From assembly GCA_003141895.1 (NCBI GenBank), contig PLNT01000036.1, positions 117,195 to 181,194 of the forward strand: 64,000 nucleotides of DNA. The letters are read 5' to 3'. Within the stretch, counting starts at the first letter, position 1, and each line of letters starts with the position of its first letter. This DNA is from Bacteroidales bacterium (lineage in GTDB: Bacteria > Bacteroidota > Bacteroidia > Bacteroidales > VadinHA17). Position numbers and translations under genes: made by a program. Below the pieces are notes generated by a model that was not told where the DNA came from, searched no databases, and saw only the letters and a program-made list of their open reading frames with translations. Below are positions 36,553 to 48,156 of this stretch, piece by piece.

Positions 36553-36605
36553 TGCATGAATTATCATGCATTAACCTTTAATATGTCACTTAATGACTGA
36601 CATAT
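36553..36605. promoter_or_regulatory. two palindromes in the hipB promoter/start region (candidate HipB operators)
   Basis: The first is TGCATGA-atta-TCATGCA (36553-36570). The second is ATATGTCA-cttaatgac-TGACATAT (36581-36605), and it spans the ATG at 36593. Confidence 0.4.
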
Positions 36606-36952
36606 CATACATAACCATGCAAGCTGCAAGCGATACTGCCCTGCTCAGGACATTAGGAGCTTTTATAAAGCATCACCGGGTACAGCAAAATAAATCTCAG
36701 TCACAACTGGCTAAGGAGGCCGGGATAGTCCGGTCAACGTTGAGTCTTTTCGAGAATGGAGAGAATACAAGCTTAATGGTATTTATCCAGTTACTCCGGG
36801 CTTTAAAACTGCTCCAGCTGCTTCAGCAATTTGAAATTAAAGAGGAACTGAGCCCTCTGCAACTGGCAAAACTTGAATATTCTCCTAAAAAGACAAGGGC
36901 TCGCAAAAAAGATACAGAAAGTAAGAACCCTGAACCTAAATCTGACTGGTAA
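36593..36952 (+). CDS. hipB: HipB-like XRE-family antitoxin/transcriptional repressor
   Basis: The HTH is KSQSQLAKEAGIVRSTLSLFENGE. A disordered basic tail ends in ...KSDW, and E. coli HipB also ends in a C-terminal Trp. The gene sits 2 nt upstream of hipA. Confidence 0.7.
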   Translation: MTDISYITMQAASDTALLRTLGAFIKHHRVQQNKSQSQLAKEAGIVRSTLSLFENGENTSLMVFIQLLRALKLLQLLQQFEIKEELSPLQLAKLEYSPKKTRARKKDTESKNPEPKSDW

Positions 36953-36954
36953 CA

Positions 36955-38250
36955 ATGGATACAGCTTATGTTAATCTCTGGAATAACCGTGTTGGCGCAG
37001 TTGCATGGAACGCTGAAAGAGGAATAGGCACCTTTCAGTTTGAACCCTCCTTTATAACCGGTAACCTGGATATAGCGCCTTTGAAAATTCCATTGAGAGA
37101 AGTCCGGAATCAGCCTAAAAATTTTCCGGAACTTAGAAATAGTATCGCATTTAAAGGGCTCCCCGGGTTACTGGCTGATGTTCTTCCCGACAAGTACGGG
37201 AATGCACTTATCAATACCTGGCTTGCACGAAACGGACGCCCTTCTGATAGTCTGAATCCTGTTGAAATGCTCTGCTTCATCGGCAAACGAGGTATGGGAG
37301 CCCTGGAATTTGAGCCTGCCATTCCAAAGGGACCAGATACATCCACAATTGTCGAGATTGGAAGCCTGGTACAGATTGCAAATGAAATACTTTCGGGCAG
37401 ACAGGATTTTTCAACAAATCTTTCCGAAAACGAAGAACGGGCGCTGCTTGATACATTGAAAATCGGTACCTCGGCAGGGGGGGCAAGAGCAAAAGCAGTG
37501 ATTGCTTTTAATCCTGTAACCAGGGAGGTCAGAAGCGGACAGGTCACTGCACTGAAGGGATTCACTCACTGGCTGATAAAATTCGATGGTGTTACTGACT
37601 CCCAGTTCGGTGCAACACACGGATATGGTCGTGTTGAAATGGCATACCACCTGATGGCTAAAGCCGCAGAAATTGAAATGACCGAATGCCGGTTGTTTGA
37701 AGAAGACGGAAGAGCCCATTTCATGACACGAAGATTTGACCGCGAACCTGGGAAAGGTAAAATTCATATGCAGAGTTTTTGCGCAATGCAGCATTATGAT
37801 TTCACCGATATAGCCGATTTCAGTTACGAACAACTCTTTGAGACCATGCGGATGCTTGGCCTTCCATATCCTGAAGCGGAACAGTTGTTCAGAAGAATGG
37901 TATTTAACGTAATTGCACGGAACTGCGATGACCATACAAAAAACTTTGCGTTCCTGATGGATAAAACCGGCAACTGGAGGCTCTCACCGGCCTTTGATGT
38001 CTGCCATTCATTCAGACCGAGGAGCACCTGGGTAAGCCAGCAATCACTTAGTGCGAATGGCAAGAGGAAAGATATCACCCGCGATGATTTTTTATCGGTT
38101 GCTAAAAACATGAATATCAAAAAAGCCGGAAATATAATAACACAAATAAATGAGATTGTAAAAAACTGGCAATCTTATGCAGAAGAGACTAAAGTAAAAC
38201 CGGAGCTAAGAGATGCAATAAATAAAACCCTTATAGATTTAAATAGCTAG
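36955..38250 (+). CDS. hipA: HipA-family serine/threonine kinase toxin
   Basis: 431 aa. The N-terminal coupling domain reads VNLWNNRVGAVAW. The P-loop-like segment is GTSAGGARAKAV. The catalytic loop is NCDDHTKNFAF and it is followed by LSPAFDV. Confidence 0.85.
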   Translation: MDTAYVNLWNNRVGAVAWNAERGIGTFQFEPSFITGNLDIAPLKIPLREVRNQPKNFPELRNSIAFKGLPGLLADVLPDKYGNALINTWLARNGRPSDSLNPVEMLCFIGKRGMGALEFEPAIPKGPDTSTIVEIGSLVQIANEILSGRQDFSTNLSENEERALLDTLKIGTSAGGARAKAVIAFNPVTREVRSGQVTALKGFTHWLIKFDGVTDSQFGATHGYGRVEMAYHLMAKAAEIEMTECRLFEEDGRAHFMTRRFDREPGKGKIHMQSFCAMQHYDFTDIADFSYEQLFETMRMLGLPYPEAEQLFRRMVFNVIARNCDDHTKNFAFLMDKTGNWRLSPAFDVCHSFRPRSTWVSQQSLSANGKRKDITRDDFLSVAKNMNIKKAGNIITQINEIVKNWQSYAEETKVKPELRDAINKTLIDLNS

Positions 38251-39478: not shown

Positions 39479-41356
39479 ATGCTAATCTACCAGGCTCCTT
39501 CCGGGAAATTTATTGATGATGTCAGGGAAAACACGATTTCAGATATCATGTCGGGAAATTACAAAGCCCGGCTTGGTAAAGAACCCGGGATCCCTGAGTT
39601 TGTATCGTGGCAGAACAGTCTTTCGAGAGTAAGGGATCTTCTTGAACTTGGCAGCATTCACGATACTTTTGTTGCTCTTGAATATGAAGTGCCTTATAAT
39701 CAGAGTCGTCTTGATTGCCTGCTGTTTGGCAAAGGAAAAAATGATATCTCAAATGTCGTGCTGATAGAATTGAAGCAATGGTCGAGTGTTAAGGCACTGG
39801 CTGAAGAAGGAAACTTTGTAGAGACATATACAGGAGGCAGGGAAAGGATTGTCCCCCACCCTTCCCAGCAAGTTAAGGGCTACCATTATTATATGAAGGG
39901 ATTCGTGGAGGAGTTTGAGAAAGAGCCAACCCTTTCACTTTTCAGCTGTGCCTACTGTCATAATTATTCCAGGACAGATGGAAAAGGATTACATGATCCT
40001 GTTTATAAAGAATTAATTGGCGAATTCCCTCTTTTTACAAAAGAAGACACAAAATTACTTGGTCTCAGGATCAGAGAACTGCTTGAAAATGGATCTGGGC
40101 TTGAAATCTTCAACCGTTTCATGCAGAGCCGTCTGCACCCTTCAAAGAAGCTGCTGGAAAATGTGCATAAGATAATAAAAAACGATGTTGTCTTCTCCCT
40201 GCTTAATGAGCAGCTTGTTGCAAAAAATCTTATCTGGGCAAGGTACCGGATGGCAGATAAGAAGAAAGAAAAGTCTGTTATTTTAGTACATGGCGGACCA
40301 GGGACAGGCAAGTCGGTTATTGCATTGAATATACTTGCCGAGGCAGCAATGCGGAAGAAGAATGTTCTTTACGGCTGCAAATCGAAACCATTCATTGAGG
40401 GGTTGAGAAAAATGGTCGGCCCGGATGTCAGAATTATATTCTCCAATCTTTATCGTTTCGTACCAAATAAAACAAAGGAAAACGAGTTTGACATACTTCT
40501 GATTGATGAGGCTCACAGGATTGAAAAGAATAGCAATCACCAGTATACAAAACCGCAGGATCGTAGCGATATGCCACAGATGGAGCAGCTGGTGCGGTGT
40601 TCAAAAACGACTGTATTTTTTATCGACGACAGGCAGAATGTGAGGTCGTCGGAGGTAGGAAGTTCACAGCTTATAAGGGATGCAGCGGCGAAGTATGGTG
40701 CAGGTATCCACGAAGTAACACTCGAAACCCAGTACAGGTGTATGGGGTCGAATGATTACCTGTTGTGGATTGAATCGGTTCTGGGGTATTCAGAAGAAGG
40801 AAGGATTTTCAGGAAAGATGATCAGTTTGACTTCAGGATCTTCTCATCGCCGCAGGAGATTATAAATATCCTGAATGAAAAGGAGAAAGAGAAACCAAAC
40901 TCGGCCCGAATGACAGCAGGATTCTGCTGGCCATGGAGTTCTAAAACAGATTTTAACGAGGAGCTTGTTAAGGATGTTAAGATAGGCGATTTTGCCATGC
41001 CATGGGAGACACATGATAAGATAACTTCAATACCAAAAGGTTATGTGAAGTGGTATGAGTGGGCATACAAGCCTGAAGGAATTAAGCAGGTGGGTTGTAT
41101 CTATACAGCCCAGGGATTTGAATTCGATTATGTCGGTGTAATTATAGGGAATGACCTCTGTGTCGACAAATCCACAGGAAAGATAGTTGCCGATATCTCG
41201 GCCACAAAAGACCCTATGCTGAGAAGAAGTCCTGAGAATTTTGAAAAGCATGTGAAAAATATTTACAGAACACTTATGACCCGTGGTATGAAGGGGTGTT
41301 ATGTGTATTTCACGGATAAGGAGACGGAAAAGTATTTCAGGGAGAGGATGGAATGA
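39479..41356 (+). CDS. DUF2075-type protein: N-terminal PD-(D/E)xK nuclease-like domain plus P-loop helicase-like NTPase (Nhi/Schlafen-helicase-like)
   Basis: 625 aa. The nuclease-like motifs are E68 (ALEYEV), D79 (RLDCLLFG) and E97-x-K99 (VLIELKQW). Walker A is GGPGTGKS (272-279) and Walker B/DEAH is LLIDEAHR (340-347). The C-terminus reads TQYRC ... CIYTAQGFEFDYVGVIIG ... RTLMTRGMKGCYVYF. Confidence 0.8.
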   Translation: MLIYQAPSGKFIDDVRENTISDIMSGNYKARLGKEPGIPEFVSWQNSLSRVRDLLELGSIHDTFVALEYEVPYNQSRLDCLLFGKGKNDISNVVLIELKQWSSVKALAEEGNFVETYTGGRERIVPHPSQQVKGYHYYMKGFVEEFEKEPTLSLFSCAYCHNYSRTDGKGLHDPVYKELIGEFPLFTKEDTKLLGLRIRELLENGSGLEIFNRFMQSRLHPSKKLLENVHKIIKNDVVFSLLNEQLVAKNLIWARYRMADKKKEKSVILVHGGPGTGKSVIALNILAEAAMRKKNVLYGCKSKPFIEGLRKMVGPDVRIIFSNLYRFVPNKTKENEFDILLIDEAHRIEKNSNHQYTKPQDRSDMPQMEQLVRCSKTTVFFIDDRQNVRSSEVGSSQLIRDAAAKYGAGIHEVTLETQYRCMGSNDYLLWIESVLGYSEEGRIFRKDDQFDFRIFSSPQEIINILNEKEKEKPNSARMTAGFCWPWSSKTDFNEELVKDVKIGDFAMPWETHDKITSIPKGYVKWYEWAYKPEGIKQVGCIYTAQGFEFDYVGVIIGNDLCVDKSTGKIVADISATKDPMLRRSPENFEKHVKNIYRTLMTRGMKGCYVYFTDKETEKYFRERME

Positions 41357-41456: not shown

Positions 41457-41831
41457 ATGAAATCATCATTTGCAAATTTTATTCGCGAAAAAAGAATAGC
41501 CAAAGGCTTGACTCTGCGGGAATTTTGCAGGCTCTGCGGATTTGACTCAAGCAACTGGAGCAAAGTTGAGAGAAGTCTCGCATCTCCTCCTCAAAGCAAA
41601 AATGTACTCGACTCAATTGCTTCTGCTCTTAAAATTGAAGCAGGCAGTCAGCTGTATAAAGAAATGTTTGATCTGGCGGCTCTTTCAACAATTCCTGAAG
41701 AATTGATAGAATCTGAAATTCTGGAACAACTACCTGTTTTCTTCAGAACAGTAAGGGGAGAAAAACCTACTGAAGAAGAGTTGAAAACGTTGATAAATAA
41801 AATAAGGTCATCATGGACCCCGGAAAAATAG
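41457..41831 (+). CDS. XRE-family HTH transcriptional regulator
   Basis: 124 aa. The HTH is LTLREFCRLCGFDSSNWSKVERS. It overlaps the next gene by 19 nt. Confidence 0.75.
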   Translation: MKSSFANFIREKRIAKGLTLREFCRLCGFDSSNWSKVERSLASPPQSKNVLDSIASALKIEAGSQLYKEMFDLAALSTIPEELIESEILEQLPVFFRTVRGEKPTEEELKTLINKIRSSWTPEK

Positions 41832-42448
41832 TCTCTATAAAAATGACCCTGGATAAAATCAGGGAAGAGGCAGAATCTTTCAGGGCAACCCACATCTTTT
41901 CCTCGAATTTGCCGGTAGATATCGAAAATGTGGTCGAAGCTACTCTTGGTATGAGGATAATTCCAATAGAGAATCTCCAGAAATTATGTGATATGGAAGG
42001 CTTTATTTCAAATGACTTTACCTCAATCTATGTTGATAAATTTCTTTATCAGGATGACCGATACTATAAGCGGGTCAGATTCACAATAGCTCATGAAATT
42101 GGTCATTATGTACTGCATCGCAGTACAATTGACAGTCAGAAGTTCGATGATGGAAATGATTGGATTAAATTCAGAATTGGCCTAAAAGATGACACTCTGG
42201 GCTGGTTTGAAACACAGGCTTCTGAATTTGCCGGCAGACTATTGGTTCCATTGGATTCTCTGGTAGAAGAATTCAGATCAAAACGGCAAATAGTTATTAA
42301 AAAGTTTTCCTCATGGGATTCACCTAAAATCAATGATGACGATTTGTTTTCAATTATTGCTCCTTTGATCTGCAGCAGATTTGATGTTTCCGCGGAAGTT
42401 ATTGAAAGAAGACTTAGAAAAGAGAATATTATGAATTTGATTGGATAA
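41813..42448 (+). CDS. ImmA/IrrE-family zinc metallopeptidase
   Basis: It has an HEXXH motif in FTIAHEIGHYVLH and a downstream EFAGRLLVP block. It is paired with an XRE regulator in the classical ImmR/ImmA layout. An alternative start lies at 41843. Confidence 0.8.
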   Translation: MDPGKIVSIKMTLDKIREEAESFRATHIFSSNLPVDIENVVEATLGMRIIPIENLQKLCDMEGFISNDFTSIYVDKFLYQDDRYYKRVRFTIAHEIGHYVLHRSTIDSQKFDDGNDWIKFRIGLKDDTLGWFETQASEFAGRLLVPLDSLVEEFRSKRQIVIKKFSSWDSPKINDDDLFSIIAPLICSRFDVSAEVIERRLRKENIMNLIG

Positions 42449-42489: not shown

Positions 42490-42657
42490 GATATGGCTGC
42501 AACTAAAGACCCGACTTTATGAAAAGACCCATAAAATTTTGAGACCTATATGAAAAATGTTTACAGGGCTCTTCTTACAAGGGGAATGAAGGGGTGTTAT
42601 GTGTATTTTACTGATAAAGAGACGGAGGAGTATTTCAGATCTAAAATGGAGATTTGA
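42490..42657 (+). pseudogene. decayed duplicate of the DUF2075 gene 3' end
   Basis: It translates as DMAATKDPTL*KDP*NFETYMKNVYRALLTRGMKGCYVYFTDKETEEYFRSKMEI. The intact gene end (41192-41356) reads DISATKDPMLRRSPENFEKHVKNIYRTLMTRGMKGCYVYFTDKETEKYFRERME. The remnant has two in-frame nonsense codons. Confidence 0.8.
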
Positions 42658-42810
42658 TCATTGTAACAACTTTTTGAATAATAATAAATTTGTCAAAGTT
42701 GTTTTTTGTGATTAACAACCTTTTTAAGTTATAATTTGCTTATTATCAATAACCTGCTGCCTTTTGTTAATGGTTGTACGGAATCAAAACTGGATATTCA
42801 CGTAAGTAAG

Positions 42811-43130
42811 GATTTGTCATGTCACAATAAAGTCGTCTAAGTGGCGATGCAAAAACCATGACAACTACGCTTAGGCAGGCAGCCCTATTGACTTTGTCAC
42901 GTTAGAAGGATCTGTCCGGGTGAAATAAGATATAATAAGTTGGTTTATGTTTTCTCGCATAGAGTTTGGGGGCCTATTAAGAAGTTGTCCGGGCTGCCGA
43001 CCGTTTCCCGCGAAGCCGATGTCATGATATAACGAATTTCTCTCGGGTAAGAAAGCGAAGCGGGAAGCCAACCGAGGAGACCGCGTCAGCGGGCGACGAG
43101 CTCATCGAATCCATTGCGCAGCAATGGTGA
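42811..43130. other. GC-rich non-coding block with multiple long-range complementarities (candidate structured RNA, class unknown)
   Basis: There is no credible ORF. The pairings I could verify are 42814-42821/42857-42864 (8 bp), 42878-42885/42991-42998 (GGCAGCCC/GGGCTGCC) and 43005-43011/43060-43066 (TTCCCGC/GCGGGAA). Two more are 43081-43084/43089-43092 and 43111-43117/43121-43127 (CCATTGC-gca-GCAATGG). Several GNRA-like loops (GTGA, GTAA, GCGA/CGAA) are present. Confidence 0.3.
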
Positions 43131-43168
43131 GATAATTAATTATACCGTCCGTGTTTGCTGGAGTGATT

Positions 43169-43786
43169 TTAAACTTTAGAATAATCAGAGTTAATTTGTC
43201 TTGGAGCAAAATATCCTTTTATACAGTTTTTGTTTCGAATACAAATCTGAATATGGTTTTTCTCTTTGAATCCAGCATTTGGATAGATATCATCTCCTTC
43301 CCAAAATACACCTCTTACAGAATCAAATGATCTTAATTCAGAATTAGGAGATCTCAGTGAATGTAATGTTTCAATAACTGCACAATCTAAGTCTCTAAGA
43401 AGGAGATCTCTATTCTCTCCAATAGGTTTGTTTGCTAATTTGATTCCCGACTTTGAAATTGCTGTCATTAAAAGGTCATATCCATCTTTTAATAATTGTA
43501 GGTTTGCGTAATCAGTAAAATCAAGACAATAACCAAGGTCAATTACTGCCCCAATAACTGCAGGTGTTTTAATAGGATTTTTTGCTTTTTGTGGATGATC
43601 CCTGAGAAATCTTGCAAATTCAAGAGCTCTTGATGGGCTATTCTCCCAAAAATAAATACCATGACCTAACCAATCATAAGTATTGTCACTTTGTTTTAGA
43701 TCTTCTTTCCCTAAAAGAATATTATCAACAATGGATTCATCACAACCATGAAATCCAAGGATTAATCCTGTTTTGGTTGTATACAT
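43169..43786 (-). CDS. hypothetical protein with a PARP/ART-like H-Y signature (DUF3990-like by recollection), candidate toxin/effector
   Basis: 205 aa. The motif LILGFHGCD (H13) is followed by DWLGHGIYFWENSPSRALEFA (Y45), then PAVIGAVIDLGYCLDF. The gene is clearly more AT-rich than its neighbours. Confidence 0.45.
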   Translation of the reverse strand: MYTTKTGLILGFHGCDESIVDNILLGKEDLKQSDNTYDWLGHGIYFWENSPSRALEFARFLRDHPQKAKNPIKTPAVIGAVIDLGYCLDFTDYANLQLLKDGYDLLMTAISKSGIKLANKPIGENRDLLLRDLDCAVIETLHSLRSPNSELRSFDSVRGVFWEGDDIYPNAGFKEKNHIQICIRNKNCIKGYFAPRQINSDYSKV

Positions 43787-43941
43787 AGATTGGAATAAGA
43801 CTTGGTCAAATTACCTCTGGAAGTAATTATACCACTAGAAATAAGAAGTGCTCTGGCACTAGACTTAGATTTTGAGACAGTCTTAGTTTTAGCTTTTATA
43901 ACCTTTTTAAAATCTCTTACTTCCCTTGTTGTCATAGCCAT
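43762..43941 (-). CDS. 59-codon ORF overlapping the start of the ART-like gene by 25 nt (candidate antitoxin/partner), below the 60-aa cutoff of the track
   Basis: My translation is MAMTTREVRDFKKVIKAKTKTVSKSKSSARALLISSGIITSRGNLTKSYSNLCIQPKQD. The overlap with the downstream gene is in TA-like arrangement. Confidence 0.4.
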   Translation of the reverse strand: MAMTTREVRDFKKVIKAKTKTVSKSKSSARALLISSGIITSRGNLTKSYSNLCIQPKQD

Positions 43942-44789
43942 AAAATTGTTACTGCAAAGTTGCGAATTTCTTTTATTAAATCAAAAACCTATACTGGTAA
44001 AAATATTGCTTCGAAAAATAACTACAAGGTGTTCTATATCTATTCAATAACAGATTTGAATTGTAAAAGGTTTCTATTGGTGCCGAGGTCCCAAATTTGT
44101 GTGCCATTCCAGCTAACTTGTCAATATAATCAAATATCTTACGATTTTCTGCCTTCCCGAAAGAGTGGTGAAGAAGATAAATAAAGGCTAAAGGAGAAAG
44201 TTGTAAATCAGCTTTACTTTCAACTTTCTAGTTTTTCCTTTCTCCTTGTTTTTAAGATGCTTCCGCCCCATCAGTCACAATATAAGGCGCAGGGCAAAAA
44301 GGCAAAAAATGAGCTGGATTATGTAAATTTCGATCAGGTTAATCATGCTCACGCCACGTCAGTCACAATACAAAAAGGACTAACGATCCGTTAACCTATT
44401 AAGAATCATTGTTTAATAGGGATTGAGGGGGAATTGTTACTTTCAGGCCATGGGACATGGAGCAAGGGGCATAGAGCAAAATCCTAAATCCTTTAACCGC
44501 AAAGGTCGCAAAGACCACCTTCGGTGGTTAAGACGCAAAGGGCACAAAGGTTCTCACCGATTTCCCTTTTCTACTCGCAAATTCCAATTTATTCCACCGT
44601 CATTGCGAGGAGCTTGCGATGCAGCAATCCCCTGAACAGACAGTAATTAATTTCGTGGTTACTCCGGGAGATTGCTTCGCTCCGCTCGCAATGACCTTTT
44701 AATTTTATAGGATTTAGCAAGGCTGTGGTTCAGAAGTTTTTCAGGCTTGGGATCATCTTCTTCGTCTTCAAAATCCATAATAATTTGAA

Positions 44790-46340: not shown

Positions 46341-46482
46341 GAGATTGCTTCGTTTCTCTAGCAATGACCAACATTTAATATGGATACAGTGTTGAGACCA
46401 GAACCCCCTCGGCCTTCGGCCACTCCCCCTTAAGGGGGAGAAAATTCTGGAAGTAATAAAATTCACCAGACACCCAGCAACC
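46341..46482 (+). repeat. 142-bp composite repeat, copy 1 (direct repeat of 47891-48032)
   Basis: GAGATTGCTTCG..GCAATGACCAACATTTAATATGGATACAGTGTTGAGACCAGAACCCCCTCGGCCTTCGGCCACTCCCCCTTAAGGGGGAGAAAATTCTGGAAGTAATA..ATTCACCAGACACCCAGCAAC. The offset to copy 2 is exactly 1550 nt, with about 8 mismatches. Confidence 0.9.
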
Positions 46483-46500
46483 AGCAGCCAGCAACCGACT

Positions 46501-47784
46501 TTACTCAAAATCAATGCACGAGTACCTGAAACTCATTAGTATCGACTTATACTGATTTACAAAATCTTTACCGATGCTTCCAAATAAATCGGGATGAAGA
46601 ATATTTTTCTTCTCCAGGGCTATATATGTATTTTTTAAAACAAAACTTTTCGAACCGCAATCCAGCTTAATTTCGGGCAATAACTTAGCCTTTTCGGTAA
46701 CAGTTCCTCCAACACTTGAATATGAAAATACCGTATCTCTCAATGATTTGAAATTCATCGAATCGATATCATACATGGTTTTATAGAAAGTCGTGTTTGA
46801 ATTCCCGGTGTCGAAGAAAAATGGCAGTCTTTTATTTTTATAAGTTACATCAATAATATAATCATCGCCCTTAATAAACAGATTGGGAATATTTGTTCCG
46901 GCGACCGGATCTTTTGGAATATATAGTAGCGAATCGGTAAAACGAATTGATTCGAAACGCATAATTAAAGGGAAACCAATAATCCCGTTTATTTTATACA
47001 TGCCATTGGCAAAGGTCAGCAGACTATCAGGGAAAACAATGAATTCCGCATTTTTGAATTCAATATTTTCGATAAATCCGTGGTCGGCAATAGCTATCCT
47101 GGAAGCATTACGCGTACCGGTTGCACCCGCCACGTAAACAAGCGAATTGGGTATTATCCTGAGATTTAACTTTTTTGCAGTAGATTCGCTGACCACATTT
47201 ACATTAGCGCCAGTGTCGAAAATCATATTAACAGTAGAGTCACTTTTTGCTTTCACCCGAAGCAAATTATAGCCTGCCAGATCTTTTATAACTTTAATTT
47301 CACTATCCGTATTTTTAATAACCTGCGTTGGTAATTCATCTTCTAAAAACCCATATGAGAGATTATCATCTTTCAGTTCGACATAATCACCCGAATCAAT
47401 AAATCGTTTATAATTTTCAATCAGATCCTCACTCAGTTCTTTCAGCTTTCTATAATTGAGAAGCTTCTGGTTGTTGTAATATTCATTCTGAATCAAAGTA
47501 TAACTCACTGTATCACTGAACTTATTGAACTGTCCGCGAAATTTTTGAATCAGTGCATTGGATTCGTCCGGCTGGTTTAAAACCGACTTCAGGATAAGAT
47601 CATAATAAATGAGTGTCTTTTCATAATAAGCGCTCCTGTTGGAAGATAGCTCAGTGTACAATTCACTGAATTTTTTACTGTTAGCCAGATCATTCAGTTT
47701 TTTGATTGGCCGGAATTCGTTTGTACATGCCATCTCGGTACATAATACCATGGCAAACAGGCAAAGTCTGTTTAATTTTTCCAT
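46501..47784 (-). CDS. retropepsin-like aspartyl protease family protein (two DTG lobes), lipoprotein/secreted
   Basis: 427 aa with a hydrophobic N-terminus containing Cys. The two motifs are MIFDTGANVNVVS and FFFDTGNSNTTFY. Confidence 0.7.
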   Translation of the reverse strand: MEKLNRLCLFAMVLCTEMACTNEFRPIKKLNDLANSKKFSELYTELSSNRSAYYEKTLIYYDLILKSVLNQPDESNALIQKFRGQFNKFSDTVSYTLIQNEYYNNQKLLNYRKLKELSEDLIENYKRFIDSGDYVELKDDNLSYGFLEDELPTQVIKNTDSEIKVIKDLAGYNLLRVKAKSDSTVNMIFDTGANVNVVSESTAKKLNLRIIPNSLVYVAGATGTRNASRIAIADHGFIENIEFKNAEFIVFPDSLLTFANGMYKINGIIGFPLIMRFESIRFTDSLLYIPKDPVAGTNIPNLFIKGDDYIIDVTYKNKRLPFFFDTGNSNTTFYKTMYDIDSMNFKSLRDTVFSYSSVGGTVTEKAKLLPEIKLDCGSKSFVLKNTYIALEKKNILHPDLFGSIGKDFVNQYKSILMSFRYSCIDFE

Positions 47785-47890: not shown

Positions 47891-48032
47891 GAGATTGCTT
47901 CGCTGCGCTCGCAATGACCAACATTTAATATGGATACAGTGTTGAGACCAGAACCCCCTCGGCCTTCGGCCACTCCCCCTTAAGGGGGAGAAAATTCTGG
48001 AAGTAATAGGATTCACCAGACACCCAGCAACA
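47891..48032 (+). repeat. 142-bp composite repeat, copy 2
   Basis: See 46341-46482. The two copies flank the aspartyl protease gene. Confidence 0.9.
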
Positions 48033-48156
48033 AGCACCCGAATTAACAACCTCTGTTGATAATTATTCCCTCCGGTAAACGATGGAATCCGATAACAACA
48101 ACTACTTTTAAAATATATATTCCAGGGTGGAAAAACATAATTAAAGTATATAAGAA

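What the first reader, a model, noticed from the sequence alone, without database searches (positions are those of the whole stretch)
43169..43941. Two-gene module: 59-codon ORF overlapping a 205-aa protein with a PARP-like H-Y signature (possible ADP-ribosyltransferase toxin-antitoxin or defence pair)
The 205-aa protein starts with LILGFHGCD (His-Gly). About 30 residues later comes GHGIYFWENS...ALEFA. Further on is a hydrophobic strand with an acidic residue (AVIGAVIDLGY). This order mimics the H-Y-[E/D] core of PARP/diphtheria-toxin-clade ADP-ribosyltransferases. From memory, it also mimics the YHGS...GxGFYLT pattern of DUF3990 proteins, which are often paired with a small DUF3791 gene. An unannotated 59-codon ORF lies just below the track cutoff (43941-43762; MAMTTREVRDFKKVIKAK...ARALLISSGIITSRGNLTKSY). 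It ends 25 nt inside the larger gene, which is a TA-like translational coupling. The pair is AT-rich relative to the flanks and sits in the island next to the structured non-coding block.
Basis: inference. Interest (0 to 1): 0.65.

Follow-up and report, generated by a model that had tools for sequence, protein, structure and literature searches.

The report
CmdT-like ADP-ribosyltransferase with small partner
A mobile two-gene cassette, found in hundreds of bacterial species, on plasmids and in prophages, pairs an uncharacterised enzyme distantly related to the RNA-modifying phage-defence toxin CmdT with a tiny basic protein that is probably its antidote; neither gene is in any curated family.

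Summary
Both ORFs exist as described: a 59-aa ORF (43762-43941, minus strand) overlaps a 205-aa ORF (43169-43786, minus strand) by 25 nt. The pair is AT-rich.

**The 205-aa protein.** It belongs to a very large family that is annotated only as hypothetical (5,538 close hits; 3,130 clusters at 50% identity). It has no Pfam or NCBIfam model. H13 and Y45 are invariant. E163, H178 and Q180 are 94-98% conserved. A confident AlphaFold model (pLDDT 93.5) retrieves almost only ADP-ribosyltransferase folds, with weak scores. All 68 diverse members tested match the PADLOC model of CmdT, the mRNA ADP-ribosylating toxin of CmdTAC. The match covers only the N-terminal NAD-binding part.

**The small ORF.** It is a real gene. 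A homologue lies immediately upstream on the same strand in 80 of 80 genome loci, and its dN/dS is about 0.15.

**Context.** No other neighbour is conserved, and there is no SecB-like chaperone or macrodomain. The cassette sits in defence islands, on 70 plasmids and in 74 viral contigs.

**Interpretation.** The best reading is a chaperone-free, type II toxin-antitoxin or abortive-infection module with an ART toxin. Toxicity, neutralisation and target are all untested. The DUF3990/DUF3791 assignment and the proposed acidic residue D83 are not supported.

The parts
43762..43941 (-). Small upstream gene of 59 aa (57 aa if translation starts at the second ATG, 43935). The protein is basic, pI 10.6. 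Its conserved core is ...SK..A..FL..AGI.T..G.L...Y. It is the putative antitoxin or partner.
   Evidence: The ORF is shown. A homologue lies immediately upstream on the same strand in 80 of 80 genome loci. It is also present in at least 51 of 62 independent viral loci with a full-length ART. dN/dS is 0.13-0.17. It has no Pfam, NCBIfam, PADLOC or PDB match. The family is basic, with median pI 9.8.
43169..43786 (-). 205-aa CmdT-like ADP-ribosyltransferase-fold protein, the putative toxin or effector.
   Evidence: It has 5,538 homologues, all hypothetical and without a Pfam domain, and 3,130 clusters at 50% identity. The AF2 model has pLDDT 93.5. Foldseek hits are dominated by ART-fold proteins. 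The PADLOC CmdT HMM matches 68 of 68 members, best E 1e-9. PHROG 14664 matches at 2.9e-25.
43745..43750 (-). Codons for H13-G14 at the end of strand beta1. This is the NAD-binding His of the H-Y-[EDQ] triad.
   Evidence: H13 is conserved in 68 of 68 members and G14 in 92%. Strand 8-16 is in the model. The position lies within the stretch aligned to the CmdT HMM.
43643..43660 (-). Codons for G43-I-Y45-F-W-E48, strand beta2, carrying the invariant Tyr.
   Evidence: G43, Y45 and W47 are 100% conserved, F46 97% and E48 91%. Window residues 9-55 align to CmdT HMM positions 6-52, which puts Y45 at about the position of the catalytic Y41 of CmdT (PMC11618068).
43247..43300 (-). Region from E163-G164 to H178-x-Q180. 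It is a loop followed by the penultimate beta-strand and holds the two candidates for the third catalytic residue.
   Evidence: E163 is 98% conserved, G164 97%, H178 97%, and Q180 is 94% Q plus 4% E. Strands 156-161, 178-183 and 189-193 are in the model. The assignment of these residues to the catalytic position is inference. No superposition could be made.
43762..43786 (-). 25-nt overlap of the two reading frames, consistent with translational coupling.
   Evidence: The overlap is shown. The same +24 arrangement occurs in 21 of 80 loci. In the others the stop of the small gene lies 0-32 nt (two loci: about 70 nt) upstream of, or up to 19 nt inside, the ART gene.
43942..43986 (-). Leader or promoter-proximal stretch of about 45 nt, conserved together with the two genes in relatives that are 76-79% identical in DNA.
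   Evidence: blastn alignments of the module to L001 and L002 begin 45 nt upstream of the small ORF and end at the ART stop codon.
42809..44440 (.). 1.63-kb segment containing the cassette and its flanks. It is shared at 96% identity between two different genomic islands.
   Evidence: The identical ART protein occurs in the window-type island and in a Vsr/Dcm/HATPase_c_3/Z1 island. Homology between the two islands, apart from a 78%-identical ORF6N gene, is confined to this stretch.

Best explanation
The locus is a self-contained, mobile two-gene operon that works like a type II toxin-antitoxin or abortive-infection module.

The downstream 205-aa protein is an ADP-ribosyltransferase of the H-Y-[EDQ] clade. 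It is a distant relative of CmdT, the toxin of CmdTAC that ADP-ribosylates mRNA. It would use NAD+, bound by H13 and Y45. Catalysis would be completed by Q180 and/or E163. It would attach ADP-ribose to an essential cellular target, most plausibly a nucleic acid such as RNA, and so arrest growth or translation.

The upstream 57-59-aa basic protein is made from the same transcript. It is translationally coupled to the enzyme through a 25-nt overlap. It would bind and neutralise the enzyme, and possibly help it fold, through its conserved core of about 30 residues (FL..AGI.T..G.L...Y). Loss of this partner, by proteolysis or a shut-off of synthesis during phage infection or plasmid loss, would free the enzyme.

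Unlike CmdTAC, no SecB-like chaperone is involved. Unlike DarTG, no macrodomain is involved.

**Shown here:** the fold family, the conserved H and Y, homology to the CmdT HMM, the obligate gene pairing, mobility, and RNA contigs that span the junction of both genes.

**Inferred:** enzymatic activity, toxicity, neutralisation by the small protein, the target, and any defence role.
For: **ART identity**
- H13, Y45, G43, W39, W47 and C87 are invariant. E163, Q180, H178, R53 and D134 are 94-98% conserved in 68 diverse members.
- The AF2 model has pLDDT 93.5 and pTM 0.89.
- About 30 of the top 32 PDB Foldseek hits are ART-superfamily structures: AcrIF11, PARP1/2/3/10/13/15, KptA/Tpt1, RhsP2 and NatT.
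- BFVD hits annotated ART-PolyVal have E 5e-5 to 1e-3 and probability 1.0.
- 68 of 68 members hit the PADLOC PD-T4-9_A (CmdT) HMMs, best E 1e-9, always over HMM positions of about 6-60 and at most 97. This stretch contains the H and Y motifs.
- 6 of 68 members weakly hit Pfam PARP.
- CmdT is an experimentally shown NAD-dependent mRNA ART with an H-Y-[EDQ] triad and catalytic Y41 (PMC11618068; bioRxiv 10.1101/2024.02.24.581848).

**TA-like organisation**
- The small gene lies immediately upstream on the same strand in 80 of 80 loci from many phyla. It is present in 51-55 of 62 independent viral loci.
- Both genes are under purifying selection.
- No other neighbour is shared by more than 4 of 80 loci.

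**Mobility and context**
- The family is on 70 plasmids, including an 8.5-kb MOBQ Acinetobacter plasmid and P. syringae plasmids where it sits beside ParA and RelE/ParE.
- It is on 74 IMG/VR viral contigs and matches a PHROG.
- The identical protein occurs in two different defence-type islands.
- Window neighbours are HipBA, an SLFN/DUF2075 helicase, XRE+M78 and ORF6N.
- Segatella copri carries tandem arrays of the pair.
- In four loci the ART reading frame is split while the small gene is intact.

**Expression**
- Peat metatranscriptome contigs cover both genes and their junction.
Against: - No experiment shows toxicity, neutralisation, NAD use or any defence phenotype.
- Structural matches are weak. 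No PDB hit has E<1e-3, and TM scores are 0.2-0.46.
- Similarity to CmdT is confined to the N-terminal third to half of the protein.
- The third catalytic residue is unresolved. If it is Q180, the enzyme may be a weak transferase, a non-canonical one, or have a different chemistry.
- The small protein has no recognisable antitoxin, DNA-binding or CmdA-like domain. It is basic rather than acidic.
- CmdT alone was not toxic in E. coli and needed CmdA to fold (PMC11445053; PMC11618068). A partner of an ART need not be a simple antidote.
- Metatranscriptome contigs can contain DNA and carry no strand information.
- The split ART frames are in MAGs and could be assembly errors.
Confidence: 0.6

Rival explanations
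1. The pair is an anti-defence or anti-CRISPR-type module. In this reading the ART is a counter-defence enzyme carried by plasmids and prophages. Like AcrIF11, it would ADP-ribosylate a host immune protein. The small basic protein would be its regulator or a specificity or adaptor subunit, not an antidote.
For: - AcrIF11 (6kyf) is the second-best PDB fold match, with E 0.015 and TM 0.44 relative to the target.
- The best fold matches overall are phage ART-PolyVal proteins and a cyanophage ejectosome protein.
- The family is found on 70 plasmids and 74 viral contigs and has a PHROG.
Against: - The only consistent sequence-level relative is the toxin CmdT, matched by 68 of 68 members.
- Most copies are chromosomal, and in this organism the pair sits among defence and TA genes.
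- The universal, tightly coupled upstream small gene is the classical antitoxin-toxin layout. Acr-associated regulators are HTH proteins, usually downstream, and the small protein has no HTH hit.
- Tandem arrays and decayed enzyme genes beside intact small genes fit TA dynamics.
Confidence: 0.12
2. The ART-fold protein is an NAD+-consuming effector, an NADase or NAD+ phosphorylase like the RES-domain toxins MbcT and NatT. It would kill or arrest the cell by depleting NAD+. The small protein would still be the antitoxin.
For: - NatT (8qnl) is among the top fold matches.
- The probable third active-site residue is Gln rather than Glu. That could disfavour transfer to a macromolecule.
- The TA-like organisation is the same as in the best explanation.
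Against: - The conserved residues are H and Y, not the R-E-S signature of RES domains, and there is no Pfam RES hit.
- Sequence similarity is to CmdT and PARP, which are transferases.
- E163 is 98% conserved and could supply the catalytic carboxylate.
Confidence: 0.13
3. The pair has a non-conflict, housekeeping or regulatory role. The enzyme would be a reversible regulatory modifier, or an RNA-repair enzyme like the 2'-phosphotransferase KptA/Tpt1. The small protein would be a substrate or cofactor.
For: KptA/Tpt1 structures are frequent among the fold matches, over about 80 aligned columns. Both genes are under purifying selection.
Against: - Distribution across phyla is patchy, and the family is carried on plasmids and prophages.
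- The identical cassette occurs in two unrelated islands.
- There are tandem paralogous arrays and apparent pseudogenes.
- No functionally linked neighbour is conserved.
- The active site is H-Y, not the H-H-h type of Tpt1 (clade definitions in PMC7955679).
Confidence: 0.05
4. The small ORF is not a functional protein. In this reading it is a conserved leader or upstream ORF that merely regulates translation of the enzyme.
For: The ORF is very short. It overlaps the start of the enzyme gene, matches no known domain, and has a low-complexity, Lys-rich N-terminal half.
Against: - The amino-acid motif is conserved across phyla where the DNA is no longer alignable. The HMM gives E<=1e-3 in 79 of 80 loci.
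- dN/dS is 0.13-0.17 in the part that does not overlap the enzyme gene.
- The core motif occurs as a tandem duplication within one polypeptide in P0271 and P0272.
- RefSeq and JGI call it as a gene.
Confidence: 0.03

Closest known systems
CmdT of the CmdTAC (PD-T4-9) toxin-antitoxin-chaperone phage-defence system of E. coli
   Same: - It is the only family with a consistent sequence-level match. 68 of 68 members hit the CmdT HMMs.
- The size is similar, about 190-205 aa.
- It has an H-Y-[EDQ]-type ART. The catalytic Tyr (Y41 in CmdT) falls at the position of Y45 here.
- It is encoded in mobile defence contexts with a small helical partner.
   Different: - Similarity covers only HMM positions of about 6-60 and at most 97. 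The C-terminal half has diverged, and here it includes a helical insertion at residues 93-144.
- Gene order is reversed. The partner is upstream here, whereas cmdA is downstream of cmdT.
- The partner has no long disordered ChAD tail and no match to the CmdA model.
- No SecB-like chaperone gene is present in the window or in 80 loci.
DarTG toxin-antitoxin system (a DNA ADP-ribosyltransferase with a macrodomain antitoxin)
   Same: It is a two-gene ART toxin module that acts on nucleic acid and defends against phage. It belongs to the same ART superfamily.
   Different: No DarT Pfam match was found. The partner is a protein of about 55 aa, not a macrodomain hydrolase. Neutralisation here would have to be by binding rather than by enzymatic reversal.
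ParST, Res-Xre, MbcTA and NatRT modules (an ART or RES toxin with an upstream antitoxin that blocks the NAD site)
   Same: The antitoxin gene is upstream of an NAD-utilising ART-fold toxin. NatT is among the fold matches. Direct-binding neutralisation is the mechanism proposed here.
   Different: Those toxins carry R-type or RES active sites, and their antitoxins carry Xre HTH plus DUF2384 domains. Neither was detected here.
ART-PolyVal domains of phage polyvalent or ejected proteins, and the anti-CRISPR AcrIF11
   Same: These give the best structural matches: BFVD E 5e-5 to 1e-3, and AcrIF11 E 0.015. They have a minimal H-Y-type ART core and are carried by mobile elements.
   Different: There is no sequence-level match to Pfam ART-PolyVal. 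Those are domains of giant proteins, or a stand-alone enzyme of about 130 aa, with no conserved small upstream partner.
   Same: DUF3990 is a member of the Pfam ART clan (PMC7955679). One of 68 relatives touches it at E 0.03.
   Different: The window protein has no match, and the small protein has no DUF3791 match. This is not that family.

Membership tests
ADP-ribosyltransferase superfamily, H-Y-[EDQ] clade | Conserved His, usually as H-G, at the end of strand beta1 | tested here: met
   H13 is present in 68 of 68 diverse members and G14 in 92%. It lies in predicted strand 8-16.
ADP-ribosyltransferase superfamily, H-Y-[EDQ] clade | Conserved Tyr in strand beta2, in a G-x-Y-F type motif | tested here: met
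   G43 and Y45 are present in 68 of 68 members and F46 in 97%. They lie in predicted strand 43-48.
ADP-ribosyltransferase superfamily, H-Y-[EDQ] clade | Glu, Asp or Gln at the start of strand beta5 | tested here: inconclusive
   There are two candidates. Q180 (94% Q, 4% E) lies in the penultimate strand 178-183. E163 (98%) lies in the loop before it. No coordinates were available for superposition on a solved ART.
ADP-ribosyltransferase superfamily, H-Y-[EDQ] clade | Split beta-sheet ART fold | tested here: met
   The model has pLDDT 93.5. Top Foldseek hits are nearly all ART-fold proteins. The scores are modest: PDB best E 5e-3, BFVD ART-PolyVal E 5e-5 with probability 1.0, and TM 0.2-0.46.
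ADP-ribosyltransferase superfamily, H-Y-[EDQ] clade | NAD+-dependent transfer of ADP-ribose | not testable with these tools
   This requires a biochemical assay.
CmdTAC (PD-T4-9) system | CmdT-family toxin | tested here: inconclusive
   68 of 68 members match the PADLOC PD-T4-9_A HMMs. The match is only to the N-terminal part, HMM positions of about 6-60 and at most 97. E-values run from 1e-9 to 2e-3, and the window protein scores 1.8e-3. This is a distant relative, not a clear member.
CmdTAC (PD-T4-9) system | Downstream antitoxin CmdA with a chaperone-addiction tail | tested here: not met
   The partner is upstream and is 47-70 aa long. It has no PD-T4-9_B match. No conserved downstream ORF was found.
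CmdTAC (PD-T4-9) system | [quoted passage not shown] | tested here: not met
   No neighbour is shared by more than 4 of 80 loci. The window neighbours carry none.
DUF3990 / DUF3791 pair | Match to Pfam PF13151 (large protein) and to DUF3791 (small protein) | tested here: not met
   Neither window protein has a Pfam hit at E<=1. One of 68 relatives hits DUF3990 at E 0.03. DUF3791 is not among the 25 families listed (of 41) for the 39 small proteins.
PARP catalytic domain (PF00644) | Match to the Pfam model above its cut-off | tested here: not met
   The window protein has no hit. 6 of 68 relatives have weak hits, best E 2.4e-4.
DarTG | DarT domain together with a macrodomain antitoxin | tested here: not met
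   There is no DarT hit in Pfam or PADLOC. The partner is a 59-aa protein with no known domain.
Type II toxin-antitoxin module (generic) | Two small co-oriented genes, closely spaced or overlapping, inherited as a unit | tested here: met
   The window pair overlaps by 25 nt. The pairing is present in 80 of 80 loci, with the stop of the small gene lying from about 72 nt before to 24 nt after the ART start.
Type II toxin-antitoxin module (generic) | Patchy, mobile distribution (plasmids, prophages, islands) | tested here: met
   The family is on 70 plasmids and 74 viral contigs. It occurs in many phyla. The identical cassette sits in two different islands.
Type II toxin-antitoxin module (generic) | The toxin arrests growth, and the antitoxin binds and neutralises it | not testable with these tools
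   This requires expression and rescue assays.
Type II toxin-antitoxin module (generic) | Antitoxin with a DNA-binding domain that autoregulates the operon | tested here: inconclusive
   No HTH, RHH or AbrB family was detected. The protein is strongly basic, with median pI 9.8, which would allow nucleic-acid binding.

The most novel reading that the evidence does not exclude
This would be the founding example of one of the largest still-uncharacterised ART toxin families in bacteria. In this reading it is a chaperone-free and hydrolase-free system. A peptide motif of about 30 residues, in a new kind of miniature antitoxin, directly gates a CmdT-related enzyme. That enzyme would have an unusual H-Y-Q (+E) active site, and its diverged C-terminal half would direct it to a nucleic-acid or other target different from the GA sites in mRNA that CmdT modifies.
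Probability: 0.3. Interest if true: 0.75.

Novelty: new variant of a known kind. Interest (0 to 1): 0.6.

Why it matters
ADP-ribosylation of nucleic acids has only recently been recognised as an immune and toxin mechanism, through DarT, CmdT and RhsP2. This family is much larger than its database footprint suggests:
- It has at least 3,130 clusters at 50% identity.
- It occurs in at least 588 species genomes, on 70 plasmids and on 74 viral contigs.
- It has no Pfam or NCBIfam model, and every copy seen is annotated as a hypothetical protein.

Three things would follow from defining it:
- Thousands of genes could be annotated.
- A minimal two-protein ART system, with no chaperone and no macrodomain, would be available for mechanistic work.
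- A new small inhibitor motif for an NAD-dependent enzyme could be tested.

The family is frequent in Bacteroidota, including gut Segatella/Prevotella, where TA and defence systems are poorly charted.

Tried and rejected
- **Family scans of both window proteins.** Pfam and NCBIfam gave nothing.
- **PDB sequence searches.** A search with the single sequence and one with the family profile gave only chance-level hits.
- **First AF2 run.** An alignment of 25 close homologues gave an unusable model, pLDDT 61. A 68-sequence diverse alignment fixed this.
- **Small protein.** It has no consistent Pfam, PDB or PADLOC match. Weak hits to albumin-binding three-helix modules, HA2 winged helix and others are scattered and were not pursued. 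It shows no similarity to CmdA.
- **A third conserved component.** I looked for a chaperone, a macrodomain or a regulator. All-against-all comparison of flanking ORFs in 80 loci found nothing shared by more than 4 loci.
- **XRE+M78 and ORF6N neighbours.** They sit next to the pair in the window, and an ImmA/IrrE+HTH pair sits next to it in an Acinetobacter plasmid. The association is not general, at most 1 of 80 loci.
- **GC-rich block downstream (42809-43168).** It has no Rfam match at E<=1. It folds no better than shuffled sequence on either strand, z 0.2 and 0.04. The apparent high RNA depth there comes from 31-nt words shared with other abundant sequences. It is not conserved with the cassette in more distant relatives.
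- **Promoter and terminator scan.** Nothing exceeded shuffled expectation. Bacteroidota promoters are not covered by that scan.
- **Repeats.** No terminal repeats bound the cassette.
- **Literature.** Searches for a description of this family ('CmdT-like', DUF3990, and combinations of ART, TA and defence terms) found none in the library searched.
- **CmdT sequence.** I could not obtain one, so no profile-profile alignment to CmdT or to solved ARTs was possible.
Full report
**1. The observation**

A 205-aa ORF occupies 43169-43786 on the minus strand. A 59-aa ORF occupies 43762-43941 on the same strand. Its last 25 nt lie inside the larger gene, in another frame. The quoted peptide motifs are all present. 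The pair has 32.6% G+C, against 39.4% for the window and 37.4% for the surrounding island.

**2. The large protein belongs to a huge, unnamed family**

- A search of 5.8 billion proteins found 5,538 homologues at E<=1e-3. Almost all are 200-206 aa, none has a Pfam domain on record, and every source name is 'hypothetical protein'.
- A profile search of 1.84 billion cluster representatives found 3,130 clusters at 50% identity, of which 2,033 score E<=1e-10.
- A scan of one genome per species for a single 10-residue pattern (WLGxGxYFWE) found at least 588 relatives. They are in Bacteroidota, Bacillota, Planctomycetota, Pseudomonadota (including Thiomargarita), Armatimonadota, Ignavibacteriota, Spirochaetia, Nitrospirales and others.
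- Pfam and NCBIfam gave no hit for the window protein. RefSeq annotates both genes as hypothetical.

**3. It is an ADP-ribosyltransferase-fold protein related to CmdT**

*Conservation.* In 68 diverse members (38-55% identical to the window protein), H13, W39, G43, Y45, W47, G79, C87 and F193 are invariant. R53, D134, E163, G164, H178 and Q180 are 94-98% conserved.

*Structure model.* A first AlphaFold model from 25 close homologues was poor, pLDDT 61. With the diverse alignment the model reached pLDDT 93.5 and pTM 0.89. H13 sits at the end of strand 8-16 and Y45 in strand 43-48. These are the positions of the H and Y of H-Y-[EDQ] ARTs (clade definitions in PMC7955679).

*Fold searches.*
- No PDB match reaches E<1e-3. 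Even so, about 30 of the first 32 matches are ART-superfamily structures. They include AcrIF11, PARP1/2/3/10/13/15, KptA/Tpt1, the RhsP2 toxin and the RES toxin NatT.
- Against predicted viral structures, five matches have E<=1e-3 and probability at least 0.98. Several of the top viral hits are annotated ART-PolyVal.

*Sequence similarity.*
- The window protein hits the PADLOC model PD-T4-9_A at E 1.8e-3, over residues 9-55.
- All 68 diverse members hit that model, best E 1e-9. The match is always to HMM positions of about 6-60 and at most 97.
- PD-T4-9_A is CmdT, the first gene of cmdTAC (PMC9519451).
- CmdT is an ART with an H-Y-[E,D,Q] triad and catalytic Y41. It ADP-ribosylates mRNA and blocks translation (PMC11618068; independent confirmation). 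The alignment offset places Y45 at the position of that Tyr.
- Six of 68 members also weakly hit Pfam PARP, and one hits DUF3990.

I conclude with high confidence, about 0.85-0.9, that this is an ART-fold enzyme. It is a distant relative of CmdT whose C-terminal half has diverged, including a helical insertion at residues 93-144.

The real candidates are Q180 and E163. Q180 (Q 94%, E 4%) lies in the penultimate strand followed by a tight hairpin, as expected for strand beta5. E163 (98%) lies in the preceding loop. I could not superpose coordinates, so this stays open.

**4. The small ORF is a real, obligately linked gene**

- In all 80 genome loci an ORF of 37-72 aa lies immediately upstream on the same strand. 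It carries the motif ...SK..A..FL..AGI.T..G.L...Y.
- An HMM built from 39 of these proteins finds a match there in 80 of 80 loci, 79 of them at E<=1e-3. The only matches elsewhere in those loci are extra copies that precede extra ART genes.
- In an independent set of 62 viral loci with a full-length ART, 51 have the small protein at E<=1e-3. Four more score E 0.007-0.015 or are recognisable by eye. The loci that lack it carry the most divergent ARTs.
- The stop codon of the small gene lies between about 72 nt before and 24 nt after the first base of the ART gene. The window's 25-nt overlap recurs in 21 of 80 loci.
- dN/dS in the non-overlapping 49 codons is 0.13-0.17. The ART gene gives 0.04-0.10.
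- The protein is basic: pI 10.6 in the window and a median of 9.8 in the family. The ART is near neutral.
- It matches nothing in Pfam, the PDB or PADLOC, and it does not match CmdA. All 109 database homologues are hypothetical.
- In two of those homologues the core of about 30 residues is duplicated in tandem within one polypeptide. This points to the core as the functional unit.

**5. The cassette is just these two genes, and it moves**

- No other neighbouring protein is shared by more than 4 of 80 loci. In particular there is no SecB-like chaperone and no macrodomain.
- In relatives that are 76-79% identical in DNA, similarity starts 45 nt upstream of the small gene and ends at the ART stop codon.
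- The identical 205-aa protein occurs in two different islands of peat and wetland Bacteroidales. One is the window's island, with thyA, an Asp protease, ORF6N, the cassette, XRE+M78, an SLFN/DUF2075 helicase and HipBA. The other has ORF6N, PLDc_2, the cassette, and Vsr, Dcm, HATPase_c_3 and Z1 genes. The two islands share 1.63 kb (window 42809-44440) at 96% identity.
- Seventy plasmids carry the family. They include an 8.5-kb mobilisable Acinetobacter plasmid and conjugative P. syringae plasmids where it sits near ParA and a RelE/ParE pair.
- 74 IMG/VR contigs and PHROG 14664 (E 2.9e-25) show that prophages or phages carry it too.
- Segatella copri carries two or three tandem copies of the pair. 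In four loci the ART frame is split while the small gene is intact, although assembly error cannot be excluded.
- Peat metatranscriptome contigs cover both genes and span their junction (43157-43874, 43846-44122 and 43511-43922). This is consistent with one transcript. The caveats are that such contigs have no strand information and may include DNA.

**6. Mechanism proposed**

The best-supported model, at confidence about 0.6, is a type II toxin-antitoxin or abortive-infection module.
- *Toxin.* The ART binds NAD+ through H13 and Y45 and ADP-ribosylates an essential target.
- *Target.* By analogy with its only sequence relative CmdT, this is most likely RNA or another nucleic acid. This step is inference, and I would put it at about 0.35.
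- *Antitoxin.* The co-translated small basic protein binds and silences the enzyme and may assist its folding, as CmdA does for CmdT. Its loss frees the enzyme.

The system differs from CmdTAC in three ways: gene order, a partner with no chaperone-addiction tail, and no chaperone. It is therefore not a CmdTAC system, even if it works like one.

Rival readings:
- an anti-defence ART of the AcrIF11 kind (0.12);
- an NAD+-depleting effector like RES toxins (0.13);
- a housekeeping enzyme (0.05);
- a non-coding role for the small ORF (0.03).

**7. Novelty and verdict**

ART toxins in TA and defence modules are a known kind. Examples are DarTG, ParST, Res-Xre and CmdTAC. This is a new variant of that kind, for four reasons:
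- It is a very large family without any curated model or publication that I could find.
- It has a new miniature partner protein.
- It has a minimal two-gene architecture.
- It may have an unusual H-Y-Q (+E) active site.

The DUF3990/DUF3791 label and the D83 assignment do not. All functional statements remain to be tested by the ordinary expression, rescue and NAD-labelling experiments listed under next steps.

Noticed in passing
window 42550-42657 (+): A 35-aa ORF (MKNVYRALLTRGMKGCYVYFTDKETEEYFRSKMEI) nearly repeats the C-terminus of the SLFN/DUF2075 helicase at 39479-41356. The XRE-HTH + M78/IrrE pair (41457-42448) lies between the intact gene and this relic. That suggests an insertion or a recombination scar.
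   Followed up: partly
window 46341-46486 and 47891-48036: Two 146-bp copies, 95% identical, bracket the aspartyl-protease-like gene at 46501-47784. They could be a repeat-flanked mobile unit or REP-type elements.
   Followed up: no
window 44665-44698 (and palindromic sequence 44440-44720): A 31-nt word here occurs in many unrelated metatranscriptome contigs, at depth up to about 440. The surrounding sequence gives the spurious ORFs typical of REP-like palindromes (…CERSEAIS…, …LLAMT…). It lies at the edge of the 1.63-kb segment shared between the two islands.
   Followed up: partly
window 42809-43168: A block of about 360 bp, relatively GC-rich (about 45%), lies just downstream of the ART gene. 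It travels with the cassette between the two islands but is absent from more distant relatives. It has no Rfam match and no excess folding on either strand. Words at 42986-43016 are shared with abundant transcripts. Its nature is unknown.
   Followed up: partly
window 44183-44241 and 44257-44373: A 24-bp-arm hairpin and a pair of 29-nt direct repeats, 88 nt apart, lie 240-430 nt upstream of the small gene. They are inside the segment shared between the islands. Weak miRNA-model hits there are chance.
   Followed up: no
L024, L028, L030, L031 (Segatella copri and relatives): Two or three tandem copies of the small-gene + ART pair lie within a few kb. This looks like paralogous expansion of the cassette in gut Prevotellaceae.
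   Followed up: partly
proteins P0271, P0272: These small-protein homologues have the core of about 30 residues (KTKEEAL.FLY.AGIVTK.GN.RK.Y) duplicated in tandem within one polypeptide of 106-112 aa.
   Followed up: no
Synechococcus phage S-B28, MK016662.1 24419-24667 (also L160): A cyanophage encodes a homologue of only the N-terminal, NAD-binding part (residues 7-91, 39% identity). BFVD annotates it as a 117-aa DUF6321 protein. It could be a truncated ART or a decoy.
   Followed up: no
L081, L082, L084, L085, L087 (second genomic context of the identical ART protein): The cassette lies beside a Vsr + Dcm methylase + HATPase_c_3 + Z1-domain cluster and a PLDc_2 nuclease-like gene. This is a second defence-type island in related peat Bacteroidales.
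   Followed up: partly
window 36593-38250 and 39479-41356: A HipB-like HTH + HipA kinase pair and an SLFN group-3/DUF2075 helicase lie in the same island. They confirm that the region is a TA and defence hotspot.
   Followed up: no
L003, L017, L021, L060: The ART reading frame is split by a frameshift or stop while the upstream small gene is intact. This could be real decay of the toxin gene or errors in MAG assemblies.
   Followed up: no
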